Position numbers and translations under genes: made by a program. The notes beneath the pieces were generated by a model. The model did no database searches. It worked only from the letters and a program-made list of their open reading frames with translations, and was not told the DNA's origin. From Escherichia coli (GTDB lineage: Bacteria > Pseudomonadota > Gammaproteobacteria > Enterobacterales > Enterobacteriaceae): a stretch of DNA of 64,000 nt. The DNA is taken from NCBI RefSeq assembly GCF_048403405.1, contig NZ_CP183129.1; one strand, written 5' to 3'. This document shows, one piece after another, positions 7,485-54,241 of the stretch. Each line of letters starts with the position of its first letter. The first letter of the stretch is position 1.

Positions 7485-8018
7485 TTATCTGTCGATACCC
7501 CAGCACGCCAGCGCGCTCTCCTGGTCACGACGGGATACCTGACCGTAACAGTTGTTTGAACGAATACGGCAGTCTCTGCCACCGTCCTTAATCCACCAGC
7601 GAATCGCTTCGCAGGCACCTTTTCGATCACCAGCATTAATTCGTCTGTAAAACGTCGACGGGAAACACTTACCGGGATCAATGTTGTACGGACAGAATGA
7701 CGCGATCCCCGCTTTCTGGGGTTCGGTCAGCGGCACTCTGATGTTTTTCTCCACCCACGCCAGCGCTTTATCACGCTCAATGGCGTTAACCTGGTCGCAT
7801 TTTTCCTTCGACAACTTCATGCCCGGAACGACAGGTTTGCCATCCACCATGATGGCACCACGGCAGATGGTCCAGATACCTGCACCATCACGGTATGCCG
7901 TGGTGTGGTTGCCTTCCTTTTCATCCAGAAACTGGTCGAGAATGTCAGGCGCAGGCGCACCAGCGGCAATCAGCGCCAGAACGGCAGCCGACAGGCCGTA
8001 TTTGATTTTGGTGTTCAT
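7485..8018 (-). CDS. SAR endolysin (T4-lysozyme-like, phage 21 R type)
   Basis: N-terminal hydrophobic SAR segment YGLSAAVLALIAAGAPA; E-x8-D-x5-T catalytic spacing in EGNHTTAYRDGAGIWT. Confidence 0.85.
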   Translation of the reverse strand: MNTKIKYGLSAAVLALIAAGAPAPDILDQFLDEKEGNHTTAYRDGAGIWTICRGAIMVDGKPVVPGMKLSKEKCDQVNAIERDKALAWVEKNIRVPLTEPQKAGIASFCPYNIDPGKCFPSTFYRRINAGDRKGACEAIRWWIKDGGRDCRIRSNNCYGQVSRRDQESALACWGIDR

Positions 8019-8054: not shown

Positions 8055-8945
8055 CTAAATACGCACTTTAAGATAAGTCAGCCCCGGATGAAGCCAGTAA
8101 GCCGGCACTTTTTTAAAGGGTGGAGTATTAAAATCACGAAGAAGAGCCTCCCGCACAATTGCATCCTTATCAGCACCACTGGCCAGCGCTTCAATCTCAG
8201 CGGCTACCTGAAGATATCCCATGCAACGGCCAACGCGCTTCATCAGCCCCTGCTTTTTATTGTTCTTCAGGTAATCAATGGCAAATTCAATGAGCTCCTC
8301 ACTGTGCTGGTGCGATGGAGGTGTTACTTTCCCATTTTCTGAGATGGTTATTTTCCCAGCATCACCGGATACAACAAAGGATGGCCGGTTACACTCCCAT
8401 TCCGGGTCACTGAAATTATCATTATGAATACTGAAACACTCTGCGAGATTTCTGCTCATCACTTTCCGACAATAATCGTCAAACGCAGCAAACTGCTTTT
8501 CATCGCCAGAAGGCACCAATATCGACCATTTCTTATTCAGCTCAACGACGTAGCTCTCCAGTTTTTCAATACGTGATTCAACATCATCTTTTTCTGACCG
8601 CAGTGTTGACGGCGGCATCTTCAGAGAACAAGTAATTCTTCCCGGTAGCTTTCCTTTGTAGGTTATCAACATATCCTGCGCCTCTAAAATTACGGGGCGC
8701 TTTTCCGGCAACGGTTCGTTCCATTCACATAACCCGGCAGCAACATCCATGAAAAACTGCTTCGCCTGCTTTTTCGCCTCAGCTTCGTAAAACTCCAGCG
8801 TGGCACCTTCAGTACGGTCAAGACTAATCGCCACATCTGGCAACAACAGCGACGCTTGCCCGTCACCTTCCGACTTCACAGTAACAGTAACCTTATCCCC
8901 GTAATTATTTATCCCCTTAACAACCAGTTCATATTTTTTATTCAT
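8055..8945 (-). CDS. Hypothetical 296-aa protein inserted between holin and endolysin
   Basis: Long ORF, ATG 8945 four nt after holin stop with GGGGAGAG upstream; ends 36 nt before endolysin; no TM segment, no motif I recognise. Confidence 0.7.
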   Translation of the reverse strand: MNKKYELVVKGINNYGDKVTVTVKSEGDGQASLLLPDVAISLDRTEGATLEFYEAEAKKQAKQFFMDVAAGLCEWNEPLPEKRPVILEAQDMLITYKGKLPGRITCSLKMPPSTLRSEKDDVESRIEKLESYVVELNKKWSILVPSGDEKQFAAFDDYCRKVMSRNLAECFSIHNDNFSDPEWECNRPSFVVSGDAGKITISENGKVTPPSHQHSEELIEFAIDYLKNNKKQGLMKRVGRCMGYLQVAAEIEALASGADKDAIVREALLRDFNTPPFKKVPAYWLHPGLTYLKVRI

Positions 8946-14674: not shown

Positions 14675-15661
14675 TCATCGTAAAACATCCTCCACGCTTA
14701 TCAGTCCATTTCGTTTCAGGTAATCCATCGCCTTCTCCGGTAATTTGCAGTCCGGCTGAGCTTTTTTCAGTTGACTGACCAGTCGTTTAACCCACATTGT
14801 TAATTCGCTAACCTGGTTACCTAGCGCTGGCGACGCTACTGTCTGTTCCAGAACGTCATCAGGTACTACCGGCTCTACTGCCAACTGACTGGCATATTTG
14901 TTAATGGTAACGATAAGCTCTTGCTCGGCCTCATCCAGACAATCACCGATACCTCGCCTGTCACCGTCAAAATCATCGAAATCGGCGCGAATCCTGGCAA
15001 CCTCCCGGATTGCGGACAACACCTCACCAGGAATTACCGGAGAGTTGCCCGATAGTGCATTCTGCTCCAGTGATGCCTTTACAAACCACGCGGCCTGAAC
15101 TATTACGCCATGAATCCAGCGCAAATCAGCATCGCGATCTTTCTTTTTCATCTTTTCGCCACTTAAAGCCTGGCTTATGTGGCTACGTACAAGGTCTTCA
15201 TGTAACACCTTCGCATCCTCAATGGTGAAACCACCAGGCAGGCGAGCCGGGGTTACATGAGGGTTGCCTTCCCCCTGACTCTGAAGCATGGCGGCGCGGT
15301 AGGCATTCCAGCCTCTCACCTCTGCAATAGCGGCAACATCATCGACCGCGTACATTTTAAGAGGGTTAGGCATTGGTTTTTCTTCAGATACTACTGGCAC
15401 TGGAGGGGCGGCATAAACAGGAATAACGTCCGCTTGCTCTTTATTGCTTTCATCCGTTAAAGCCCAGAATAATTTCCCGGCCGGATGTTTGAAAATATAA
15501 GCAACTGGTTCTGCGCTATCAGCTTCGCGCCGCTTCTGTAGCTCTGCTGCCATTGCGCTCACGACTTCAACTGGTGCCCTTGCAGCAAACTCTATGTTGG
15601 TGATAAGCTCATTAAGATATTGCTCGCTGGGATACTGTTTCTTATTGGTAATAGTGGTCAT
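14675..15661 (-). CDS. Hypothetical phage protein (328 aa) sharing N-terminal module with 16025..16432
   Basis: Long ORF; contains PVYAAPPVPVVSEEK also present in upstream paralogue. Confidence 0.7.
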   Translation of the reverse strand: MTTITNKKQYPSEQYLNELITNIEFAARAPVEVVSAMAAELQKRREADSAEPVAYIFKHPAGKLFWALTDESNKEQADVIPVYAAPPVPVVSEEKPMPNPLKMYAVDDVAAIAEVRGWNAYRAAMLQSQGEGNPHVTPARLPGGFTIEDAKVLHEDLVRSHISQALSGEKMKKKDRDADLRWIHGVIVQAAWFVKASLEQNALSGNSPVIPGEVLSAIREVARIRADFDDFDGDRRGIGDCLDEAEQELIVTINKYASQLAVEPVVPDDVLEQTVASPALGNQVSELTMWVKRLVSQLKKAQPDCKLPEKAMDYLKRNGLISVEDVLR

Positions 15662-16023
15662 GCTGTAGCCCCTTCTTGATATTTTTCAAACCAGAACACA
15701 ACCGGGTCAGATTTCATTTCAACCAATCCCATACGAACCAGCGCTTTGCCTTTCCCGGACGCAAGGAATTCACGACGACCATCACTGATAATTCGCCGAT
15801 AGTCTTCCAGGCTACTGCAATGCTTGTGCAGATTGCATGGGTGGCATGCCGGAACCATGTTGGATATATCGTCACGTTCCTGGTGAAGCATATTTCCATT
15901 AAAACGAATGACCGGTTTTACATGGTCTGCATGCCACTTTTCGCCAAGTTCACAGCCGCAATAAGCACAGCGACCGCCAAACTTCATGCGCAATTCTGCA
16001 CGTTGTTTTTTCGTCAGTGCCAT
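15658..16023 (-). CDS. HNH endonuclease
   Basis: CAYCGCEL…HADHVKPV…N…CHPCNLHK HNH motif; 121 aa. Confidence 0.8.
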   Translation of the reverse strand: MALTKKQRAELRMKFGGRCAYCGCELGEKWHADHVKPVIRFNGNMLHQERDDISNMVPACHPCNLHKHCSSLEDYRRIISDGRREFLASGKGKALVRMGLVEMKSDPVVFWFEKYQEGATA

Positions 16024-42398: not shown

Positions 42399-42433
42399 AA
42401 AAAAAATCCCCGCGACACGGCATGTCGCGGGGA
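42399..42433 (-). terminator. Rho-independent terminator for bhsA
   Basis: TCCCCGCGACA…TGTCGCGGGGA stem with U-run on minus strand. Confidence 0.6.
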
Positions 42434-42471: not shown

Positions 42472-42729
42472 TTATTTATAAATTACTGCTGTTCCATGGA
42501 GGGTATTTGGACCGGTTACAGAAGTAATACGGAATGATTTTGCGCCCATCTCATCCGCTTTTTGCGCCAGCTGCTCTTCCAGCGATCCCAGATTTGTCCC
42601 CGCGTTAGCACTGATAGTACCGACTTTTTGTTGGCCTTCTGGCGTTGACTGAACTTCGACAGCCGCAAAGCTGGCAAATGACATTGAGCTTAAAATCGCC
42701 GCAGCGATGAGGGTTTTTACGTTTTTCAT
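42472..42729 (-). CDS. bhsA: Multiple stress resistance protein BhsA (YcfR)
   Basis: 85 aa with signal peptide. Confidence 0.9.
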   Translation of the reverse strand: MKNVKTLIAAAILSSMSFASFAAVEVQSTPEGQQKVGTISANAGTNLGSLEEQLAQKADEMGAKSFRITSVTGPNTLHGTAVIYK

Positions 42730-42989
42730 AATAGTGGCCTTATGCAGATGAATGACGTCGCAAGCAATTACTTAACGATCGATAACTAAATGATAGATGT
42801 GATCTGGATCACATACAAGATATTTTTTATAACAATCATTAATTAATTTAAAAATCTTTAAATTTCAGTTAAATAGAAAGCAATTATTTTTATGGGATCT
42901 GGACTGGTGAACGGAGGTGATTATTTTTATAATAACCTTTCATTCACAGTCACCAGGTACAACGGCATCATGGCAACTGACTCAACACA

Positions 42990-43601
42990 ATGTGTAAAAA
43001 AAGCCGTGGCCGCCCAAAAGTGTTCGACAGGGATGCCGCGCTTGATAAGGCCATGAAATTGTTCTGGCAACACGGTTATGAAGCGACTTCTCTTGCGGAC
43101 CTCGTCGAAGCGACCGGAGCCAAAGCGCCCACGCTATACGCGGAATTTACCAACAAAGAGGGGTTATTTCGCGCCGTACTCGACCGCTATATCGATCATT
43201 TTGCCGCTAAGCATGAAGCACAGCTGTTTTGTGAAGAGAAAAGCGTGGAGACTGCGCTGGCTGACTATTTTGCTGCCGTCGCCAACTGCTTTACCAGCAA
43301 AGACACCCCGGCTGGCTGCTTTATGATCAACAACTGCACCACCCTCTCCCCGGATTCCGGAGATATCGGCAATACGCTGAAATCACGCCATGCGATGCAA
43401 GAGCGCACTTTGCAGCAGTTTTTATGTCAACGACAAGCGCGCGGGGAAATCCCGACCCACTGTGACGTGACGCATCTGGCAGAATTCCTTAATTGTATTA
43501 TTCAGGGGATGTCGATCAGCGCACGCGAAGGTGCATCGCTGGAAAAACTGATGCAGATTGCCCGAACGACTTTGCGTTTATGGCCCGAACTGGTGAAATA
43601 A
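42990..43601 (+). CDS. comR: TetR-family repressor ComR (YcfQ); N-terminus possibly altered by a 1-nt deletion
   Basis: 203-aa ORF from ATG 42990; upstream ATG 42970 is out of frame by one base across an A7 run. Confidence 0.85.
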   Translation: MCKKSRGRPKVFDRDAALDKAMKLFWQHGYEATSLADLVEATGAKAPTLYAEFTNKEGLFRAVLDRYIDHFAAKHEAQLFCEEKSVETALADYFAAVANCFTSKDTPAGCFMINNCTTLSPDSGDIGNTLKSRHAMQERTLQQFLCQRQARGEIPTHCDVTHLAEFLNCIIQGMSISAREGASLEKLMQIARTTLRLWPELVK

Positions 43602-53949: not shown

Positions 53950-54241
53950 AATTGAGAGTGCTCCTGAGTATGGGTGCTTTTTTACGTTCTCACGCGTGGC
54001 AAGGGGGAGAGCCTCGCCGTGTACAGGGCATCTAAGCGCCCTTTATTTATTACACAGAGTAAAATAATTCAGTGCCGATTTGTTTGACGGCTATCACGTT
54101 TCAACTTCAGATCATTGGAGAAGTTGCACATTTTGACAAAACATATGTCACAATATTTCAAACGTGGTTATTCACCGCCCAATTTTCGGCGGTGAACTTT
54201 ACTCGTTTTAGCCATTAATTACGAGCTTTAAAAAAACTCAT

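What the first reader, a model, noticed from the sequence alone, without database searches (positions are those of the whole stretch)
42961..43020. Probable 1-nt deletion in an A-run at the start of comR
An ATG at 42970 reads MATDSTQCVKK and then runs through a seven-A homopolymer into a frame that stops after 28 codons. The long ORF starts at ATG 42990 in the +1 frame (203 aa). One additional A would join them into a 210-aa protein, which is the length I recall for K-12 ComR. This is either a homopolymer sequencing error or a real frameshift that truncates or abolishes the repressor.
Basis: partly seen in the sequence, partly recalled or inferred. Interest (0 to 1): 0.4.

Follow-up and report, generated by a model that had tools for sequence, protein, structure and literature searches.

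The report
One-base A-run frameshift in comR
The copper-responsive repressor gene comR in this E. coli sequence is missing one A from a run of eight, which breaks its reading frame; this is most likely a sequencing or assembly miscount, or otherwise an ordinary strain-private pseudogene, and is not a new kind of feature.

Summary
Window 42996-43002 is A7. The ATG at 42970 reads MATDSTQCVKK and stops after 28 codons. The ATG at 42990 opens a 203-aa ORF identical to residues 10-210 of ComR.

Six near-identical E. coli genomes all carry A8 and an intact 210-aa comR. Among 5,423 complete genomes, exact-match counts are A8 5,072, A7 9 and A9 3.

I favour a homopolymer miscount (about 0.68) for these reasons:
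- The window's only two indels against its relatives are both private one-base deletions in homopolymers (A8→A7 in comR, G6→G5 upstream of ptsG). The six relatives show no indels among themselves over 35.8 kb.
- Strain NCTC 86 has A7 in one assembly and A8 in three others.
- Read-set assemblies carrying A7 also carry other homopolymer deletions that split the essential gene lolC, plus mfd and ldtC.

A real, recent frameshift (about 0.27) cannot be excluded without reads. It would derepress bhsA/comC and could be leaky. Novelty is nil and interest is low.

The parts
42996..43002 (+). A7 homopolymer. It is A8 in the near-identical relatives and in 5,072 of 5,423 complete E. coli genomes. This is the site of the 1-nt deletion.
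42970..43056 (+). Authentic comR start codon and N-terminal codons (MATDSTQCVKK). After the A7 tract the frame runs out of phase to a stop at 43054-43056 (28 codons).
   Evidence: weak Shine-Dalgarno pairing upstream (-3.8 kcal/mol)
42990..43601 (+). A 203-aa ORF carrying the rest of ComR (TetR_N at 18-63, TetR_C_13 at 90-179), 100% identical to residues 10-210 of WP_024176208.1. Its ATG has no Shine-Dalgarno support.
42970..43601 (+). comR as a whole: 632 bp, frameshifted. It has the same extent as the 'comR pseudogene, frameshifted' features in the nine A7 RefSeq genomes.
42472..42729 (-). bhsA (= comC = ycfR), the divergently transcribed gene that ComR represses. It is intact (85 aa). If the frameshift is real, this is the gene that would be derepressed.
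   Evidence: function from Mermod et al. 2012 as cited in PMC7558416 and PMC11913740
42730..42969 (.). The bhsA-comR divergent intergenic region, identical to the relatives. The presence of promoters and a ComR operator here is inferred, not mapped.
   Evidence: no differences here; literature
54003..54007 (+). G5 run, G6 in all six relatives and G5 in only 1 of 5,423 genomes. It is the second private 1-nt homopolymer deletion of this window, 54-58 nt upstream of the ptsG ATG (53949, minus strand). It is listed because it bears on error versus real mutation.

Best explanation
The window carries the ordinary E. coli comR gene, a TetR-family copper-responsive repressor of the divergent bhsA/comC gene. 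Its A8 tract at codons 9-12 is recorded as A7. I think this is most likely a homopolymer under-call introduced when this genome was sequenced or assembled, so the real strain probably has A8 and an intact 210-aa ComR. Shown: the deletion exists in the given sequence, it is private to it, and it breaks the frame. Inferred: that it arose in sequencing rather than in the cell.
For: (1) The change is private. Six genomes from the USA, Japan and Spain are otherwise identical across the 35.8-kb backbone, and all have A8.
(2) The window's only two indels over 64 kb are both one-base deletions inside homopolymers: A8→A7 here and G6→G5 at 54003-54007. Both are private and both are rare in the species (9/5,423 and 1/5,423). 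The six relatives show 2 singleton SNPs and 0 indels among themselves over the same backbone. Against 2-3 private SNPs in the window, two indels is far above the roughly 1:10 indel-to-substitution ratio I recall for wild-type E. coli (own knowledge).
(3) There is a direct precedent. Strain NCTC 86 has A7 and a frameshifted comR in assembly OZ489144.2, but A8 and an intact 633-bp comR in LR217818.1, CP019778.1 and LT601384.1.
(4) Public read-set (Logan) assemblies that yield the same 203-aa product often carry further one-base homopolymer deletions within a few kb. These split the essential gene lolC, plus mfd and ldtC. The A7 state also turns up in two different haplotypes within the same run series (DRR3937xx, SRR186816xx-186817xx).
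(5) Seven of the nine A7 genomes come from clearly different lineages (under 99.5% identity over about 10 kb); the remaining two, CUPF12 and NCTC_86, are 99.9% alike. I did not search for A7 among each genome's own closest relatives, so 'never inherited' is not directly shown. By contrast, a neutral intergenic A8 tract 600 bp away shows inherited A7 in whole lineages (2,263 versus 221 exact matches).
Against: No reads or quality values are available, so the call cannot be checked directly. Only two homopolymer discrepancies occur in 64 kb, among 85 runs of 6 or more bases, so this is not a grossly error-prone assembly. The window also carries genuine-looking private or rare substitutions: 31739 is synonymous in cobB, and 7678 is shared with other public assemblies. 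Its strain is therefore a slightly diverged clone member that could carry real private indels. In vivo slippage at A8 tracts does happen, as the polymorphic control tract shows. Loss of comR can be selected, as frameshifts in Serratia under meropenem plus InC58 show (PMC11913740). Four of the A7 complete genomes and two contigs (L005, L007) show no other homopolymer indel nearby, so some A7 calls may be real.
Confidence: 0.68

Rival explanations
1. This is a real, recent, strain-private slipped-strand deletion (A8→A7) that makes comR a pseudogene. Ribosomes starting at 42970 terminate after 28 codons, little or no repressor is made, and bhsA/comC is constitutively derepressed, lowering outer-membrane copper permeability and altering stress and biofilm traits. 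The defect could be leaky. A -1 ribosomal slip on the in-frame A_AAA_AAA heptamer after codon 11 would recreate exactly wild-type ComR. Initiation at ATG 42990 would give a 203-aa protein with both domains intact.
For: The deletion is in the sequence and breaks the frame. A8 tracts do slip in vivo: the nearby neutral tract is A7 in 221 genomes, inherited by whole lineages. A9 is shared by the sibling isolates 1435 and 1436. The window has other private substitutions, so real private mutations exist. All its private changes are transitions or homopolymer indels, which matches the spectrum of mismatch-repair deficiency (own knowledge). comR frameshifts have been selected experimentally in Serratia, and ycfQ mutations were associated with larger colonies in E. 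coli range-expansion lines (PMC7092555). The restoring -1 shift and the intact domains are shown. AAAAAAA motifs are discussed as slippage-prone in PMC4066793.
Against: A7 is found in only 0.17% of complete genomes, and one of the nine is contradicted by three other assemblies of the same strain. A second private homopolymer deletion in the same 64 kb, with zero indels among six relatives, fits an assembly artefact better. ATG 42990 has no Shine-Dalgarno pairing (-1.5 kcal/mol, typical of random ATGs). The frameshift efficiency of this site is unmeasured.
Confidence: 0.27
2. The A-tract is a contingency (phase-variation) switch, or a programmed recoding site, that E. coli uses to toggle ComR and hence bhsA/comC expression. 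On this view the A7 state is a functional OFF or recoded state rather than damage.
For: Length variants in both directions exist (A7 9, A9 3) in several unrelated lineages. The tract sits at the very start of a regulator gene, and a -1 slip would restore the protein.
Against: Variants total 12 of 5,423 genomes (0.2%). Those compared are mostly from different lineages. A7 is not reproducible between assemblies of NCTC 86. The in-frame A8 arrangement, not the shifted one, is what is conserved (5,072 exact matches). A neutral tract of the same length varies about 50 times more often, so selection at comR keeps the frame rather than exploiting switching.
Confidence: 0.04

Closest known systems
E. 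coli comR (ycfQ), e.g. WP_024176208.1 in strains MS 69-1, TUM14771 and 4621; the TetR-family copper-responsive repressor of comC/bhsA/ycfR (Mermod et al. 2012, cited in PMC7558416 and PMC11913740)
   Same: It has the same locus (ldtC - bhsA <> comR - ycfJ - ndh) and the same DNA over 771 bp apart from one base. Protein residues 10-210 are identical, and the TetR_N and TetR_C_13 domains are the same.
   Different: The tract is A7 instead of A8, so the 210-aa frame is broken into a 28-codon stub and a 203-aa ORF.
The nine RefSeq complete genomes whose comR is annotated 'pseudogene, frameshifted' (SLK172, O177:H21, ECC-1470, UPEC-774U/190308, tcmA_3, ETEC1701, TUM14668, CUPF12, NCTC_86 OZ489144.2)
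   Same: They have an identical 75-nt sequence around the tract, with A7 and the same 632-bp gene extent.
   Different: They come from different lineages, so the events are independent. For NCTC 86 the A7 is contradicted by three other assemblies of the strain.
Homopolymer under-calls in long-read, 454 or Ion-type sequencing and in assemblies built from such reads
   Same: The changes are one-base deletions confined to homopolymers, private to one assembly, and more than one occurs per region. The same comR tract is shortened in read-set assemblies that also shorten other runs and break the essential gene lolC.
   Different: The density here is low (2 in 64 kb). The platform and the reads of the source genome are unknown.

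Membership tests
comR / ComR (TetR-family copper-responsive repressor of bhsA/comC) | Orthologous position: divergent from bhsA, between ldtC and ycfJ/ndh | tested here: met
   ORF map and RefSeq annotation of near-identical loci
comR / ComR (TetR-family copper-responsive repressor of bhsA/comC) | TetR N-terminal HTH domain plus TetR C-terminal domain | tested here: met
   PF00440 E=1e-15 and PF16925 E=4e-8, in both the 203-aa ORF and the 210-aa reference
comR / ComR (TetR-family copper-responsive repressor of bhsA/comC) | Intact 210-aa reading frame from the annotated start | tested here: not met
   The frame from ATG 42970 stops after 28 codons, and A7 replaces A8. As recorded, the gene is a pseudogene.
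comR / ComR (TetR-family copper-responsive repressor of bhsA/comC) | Copper-responsive repression of bhsA/comC | not testable with these tools
   Known only from the literature
Homopolymer sequencing/assembly indel artefact | One-base length change confined to a homopolymer and absent from near-identical genomes | tested here: met
   A8→A7 is private against six relatives
Homopolymer sequencing/assembly indel artefact | Other discrepancies of the same type in the same assembly, in excess over substitutions | tested here: met
   G6→G5 at 54003-54007 is also private. All indels in the window are homopolymer deletions, there are 2 indels against 2-3 private SNPs, and the relatives have 0 indels
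Homopolymer sequencing/assembly indel artefact | The same tract is miscounted in independent assemblies of one strain | tested here: inconclusive
   This is shown for strain NCTC 86 (A7 in 1 assembly, A8 in 3). No second assembly of the window's own strain was identified.
Homopolymer sequencing/assembly indel artefact | Accurate reads support a tract length different from the assembly | not testable with these tools
   No reads are available
Phase-variable contingency locus (slipped-strand mispairing switch) | Frequent ON/OFF tract-length variation within and between lineages | tested here: not met
   A8 5,072, A7 9, A9 3. The variants compared are mostly from different lineages. A neutral A8 tract varies far more.
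Programmed -1 frameshift / transcriptional slippage recoding site | Slippery X_XXY_YYZ heptamer in the zero frame whose -1 shift gives the functional product | tested here: met
   A_AAA_AAA is in the frame of ATG 42970, and a -1 shift after codon 11 yields the exact wild-type ComR
Programmed -1 frameshift / transcriptional slippage recoding site | The shifted two-frame arrangement is conserved among relatives | tested here: not met
   Relatives and 5,072 genomes have a single in-frame ORF
Programmed -1 frameshift / transcriptional slippage recoding site | Downstream stimulatory structure or upstream SD-like stimulator | not tested
   Not examined, because the conservation criterion already fails

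The most novel reading that the evidence does not exclude
The A8 tract at codons 9-12 of comR could be a genuine mutational hot spot that repeatedly produces short-lived comR-off variants in natural E. coli, including this strain. These variants would be kept partly functional by -1 ribosomal slippage on A_AAA_AAA, which would recreate wild-type ComR. That would make it a crude, leaky switch for bhsA/comC-mediated copper and stress tolerance.
Probability: 0.05. Interest if true: 0.4.

Novelty: already known. Interest (0 to 1): 0.1.

Why it matters
It matters little biologically. If it is an artefact, it only flags the assembly: comR should not be scored as lost, and the ptsG-leader G-run should be re-checked as well. 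If it is real, it is one more strain-private pseudogene. The predictable consequence is constitutive bhsA/comC expression, meaning lower copper permeability and altered stress and biofilm phenotypes. That would be of mild interest because comR loss has been linked to reduced susceptibility to a carbapenem plus metallo-beta-lactamase-inhibitor combination in Serratia (PMC11913740). A practical by-product is that the comR A8 tract is a recurrent miscount site, with 12 of 5,423 RefSeq complete genomes annotated as frameshifted there. It should be treated with caution in pseudogene and heavy-metal-resistance gene surveys.

Tried and rejected
(1) I tried to identify the source assembly or an independent assembly of the same strain.
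- An exact look-up of the 203-aa product found 18 contigs, but the only NCBI record belongs to another lineage (97.9% identity).
- The private cobB SNP is synonymous, so it cannot be used for a protein look-up.
- The lysozyme variant at 7678 is shared by many assemblies that differ from the window at 8672 and 9259.
- No second assembly of the strain was found.

(2) I first read the extra deletions in UPEC-774U (T5 at ~41422, A8 at ~42399) as an error signature. I rejected this because TUM14668 shares both, and the 42399 tract is naturally A7 in 221 genomes.

(3) Literature searches for a described comR/ycfQ A-tract frameshift in E. coli found nothing specific. The supplement of PMC7092555 holds no ycfQ detail.

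(4) I considered that the true ComR start might lie downstream, for example the GTG at codon 18, which would put the tract in the 5' UTR. I rejected this because the tract length is constrained about 50-fold more strongly than a neutral A8 tract, as expected for coding sequence, and because no Shine-Dalgarno motif is visible upstream of that GTG by eye in the sequence.

(5) NCBIfam gave only sub-threshold hits to other TetR regulators and no ComR-specific model.

They would not discriminate error from mutation.

Full report
**1. Observation**

The window reads ...GGCATC ATG GCA ACT GAC TCA ACA CAA TGT GTA AAA AAA GCC GTG G..., with the ATG at 42970 and a run of exactly seven A at 42996-43002. 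Translation from 42970 gives MATDSTQCVKKAVAAQKCSTGMPRLIRP and then a stop. The longest ORF in the area is 42990-43601, starts at an ATG and is 203 aa. The proposed repair of one extra A is nevertheless right.

**2. What the gene is**

The flanking ORFs are ldtC (+), bhsA (42472-42729, -), the gene in question (+), ycfJ (-) and ndh (-). This is the order annotated in near-identical RefSeq genomes, where the gene is [quoted passage not shown], 633 bp and 210 aa (WP_024176208.1).

The reference protein begins MATDSTQCVKKSRGRPKVF. The window's 203-aa ORF is 201/201 identical to its residues 10-210. Pfam finds TetR_N (25-70 of the 210-aa protein, 18-63 of the 203-aa ORF) and TetR_C_13. NCBIfam has no ComR-specific model that passes its cut-off.

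According to reviews citing Mermod et al. 2012, ComR represses the divergent comC (= ycfR = bhsA) gene in a copper-relieved manner, and ComC lowers outer-membrane copper permeability (PMC7558416; PMC11913740).

**3. The difference from relatives**

A 771-bp query has no 100% match among 5,426 complete E. coli genomes. The six best hits (TUM14771, GN02461, 4621, MS 69-1, TUM1226, OX030728) differ by a single extra base. The alignment places that base in the A-run: A8 in the relatives, A7 in the window.

Exact-match counts with 75-77-nt probes across 5,423 genomes are:

| Tract | Genomes |
|---|---|
| A8 | 5,072 |
| A7 | 9 |
| A9 | 3 |
| Other (a substitution within the probe) | remainder |

All nine A7 genomes are annotated "comR, pseudogene, frameshifted" with a 632-bp extent. 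The two A9 genomes I examined are annotated the same way.

**4. Error or mutation? Evidence from the window**

Against MS 69-1, the whole 64-kb window shows three substitutions and two indels. Both indels are one-base deletions in homopolymers: A8→A7 in comR, and G6→G5 at 54003-54007. The G-run lies 54-58 nt upstream of the ptsG start codon.

- Over the 35.8-kb chromosomal backbone (28200-64000), the six relatives differ from one another by two singleton SNPs and no indel.
- Over the same backbone, the window has one private SNP (31739, synonymous in cobB) and the two private homopolymer deletions.
- The G5 allele occurs in 1 of 5,423 genomes.
- In the prophage part, 8672 T is private. 7678 T is absent from the three relatives with the same prophage but present in other public assemblies.

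So every indel in the window is a homopolymer deletion, both are private and rare in the species, and they equal or nearly equal the private substitutions in number. From my own knowledge, spontaneous indels in wild-type E. coli run at about one tenth of substitutions. Two real indels alongside 2-3 substitutions is therefore unlikely (a few per cent), whereas one or two residual homopolymer under-calls per 64 kb are common in long-read or 454-era assemblies.

The density is low: 2 of 85 runs of 6 or more bases are affected. This is not a raw error-prone assembly.

**5. Error or mutation? Evidence from elsewhere**

(a) Strain NCTC 86 is represented several times.
- OZ489144.2 has A7 and a frameshifted comR.
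- LR217818.1, CP019778.1 and LT601384.1 have an intact 633-bp comR.
- So this tract is miscounted in one assembly, or has mutated in one stock of a single strain.

(b) The exact 203-aa product is on record in 18 contigs: one NCBI draft and many Logan assemblies of sequencing runs.
- Several of these carry additional one-base homopolymer deletions within a few kb (T7, T7, A6, A8, C4). These split the essential gene lolC, and also mfd and ldtC.
- Two run series (DRR393716/DRR393773, SRR18681702/SRR18681628) show A7 in two different haplotypes.
- This is what a platform artefact looks like.

(c) Seven of the nine A7 complete genomes come from clearly different lineages; CUPF12 and NCTC_86 are 99.9% alike over about 10 kb. 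I did not check whether each one's closest relatives also carry A7.

(d) As a control I used the intergenic A8 tract at 42399-42406, beside the ldtC/bhsA terminator hairpin.
- It is A8 in 2,263 exact matches and A7 in 221. A7 there is inherited by whole lineages such as O145:H28.
- Real slippage at A8 tracts therefore occurs and persists when neutral.
- At comR it is about 50 times rarer, so the frame is under purifying selection, and A7 calls are either artefacts or very recent events.

**6. What counts for a real mutation**

- No reads are available.
- Four A7 complete genomes and contigs L005 and L007 show no other homopolymer indel nearby.
- A9 is shared by the sibling isolates 1435 and 1436.
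- The window's strain does carry genuine-looking private substitutions.
- All its private changes are transitions or run indels, which also fits mismatch-repair deficiency (own knowledge; the repair genes lie outside the window).
- comR frameshifts were selected in Serratia, and ycfQ mutations were associated with larger colonies in E. coli range-expansion lines.

I put the artefact at about 0.68, a real private frameshift at about 0.27, and anything more exotic at about 0.05.

**7. Mechanism if real (inferred)**

Ribosomes initiating at 42970 (weak Shine-Dalgarno pairing, -3.8 kcal/mol) would terminate at 43054-43056. ATG 42990 has no Shine-Dalgarno pairing (-1.5 kcal/mol, like random ATGs) and lies inside the translated stub, so the 203-aa product should be scarce even though both of its domains are intact. 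Repressor shortage would derepress bhsA/comC.

The defect may be leaky. The tract forms an in-frame A_AAA_AAA heptamer, and a -1 slip after codon 11 regenerates exactly MATDSTQCVKK|SRGRPKVF..., which is wild-type ComR. AAAAAAA motifs are discussed as prone to slippage and are under-represented in E. coli genes (PMC4066793). The efficiency at this site is unknown.

**8. Comparison with known things, and novelty**

The gene is comR by position, domains and identity, but as recorded it fails the intact-frame criterion. It matches the "frameshifted comR" pseudogene annotations already present in nine RefSeq genomes.

It does not qualify as a phase-variable locus, because variants make up 0.2% of genomes and the variants compared come mostly from different lineages. 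It does not qualify as a programmed recoding site, because the in-frame A8 arrangement is what is conserved.

Nothing here is new in kind. Interest is low. The practical lessons are to verify the tract before scoring comR as lost, and to treat this A8 run as a recurrent miscount site.

Noticed in passing
window 54003-54007: G5 run where all six near-identical relatives and 5,422 of 5,423 complete genomes have G6. It lies 54-58 nt upstream of the ptsG start codon (53949, minus strand), in what I recall to be the ptsG leader. It is a second private homopolymer deletion, so it is either another miscount or a change in the ptsG 5' region.
   Followed up: partly
window 1-~28,300: A lambdoid prophage (terminase, portal, lysis cassette, Q, RusA, replication genes, DicB/DicC-like region, exonuclease, excisionase, integrase) is inserted next to potC. 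The same prophage is present in MS 69-1, OX030728 and TUM1226. A different prophage occupies the same site in strain 4621. There is none in GN02461 and TUM14771, where potB abuts potC.
   Followed up: partly
window 42399-42406: An intergenic A8 tract flanks the ldtC/bhsA terminator hairpin (CCCCGCGACA...TGTCGCGGGG). It is naturally polymorphic in E. coli: A8 in 2,263 exact matches and A7 in 221, with A7 fixed in lineages such as O145:H28. It served as a useful neutral control for tract-length variation.
   Followed up: yes
window 8672 and 7678: There are two C→T differences in the prophage lysis region. 8672 T lies in the YdfR/DUF1327 remnant and is seen in no other sequence I examined. 7678 T is non-synonymous in the lysozyme gene, absent from the three relatives with this prophage, and present in other public assemblies (GCA_053971065.1, GCA_030510625.1 and others).
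   Followed up: partly
window 31739: A private synonymous substitution in cobB (GCA→GCG, Ala181). All six relatives carry the other base.
   Followed up: yes
L036 (TUM1226) ~14899-16009; L030 (2014C-4423) ldtC: Relatives and comparison genomes carry their own annotated frameshifts: the DUF968 prophage gene in TUM1226, and ldtC next to an A9 comR in 2014C-4423. This suggests some of these complete genomes also contain local assembly errors.
   Followed up: no
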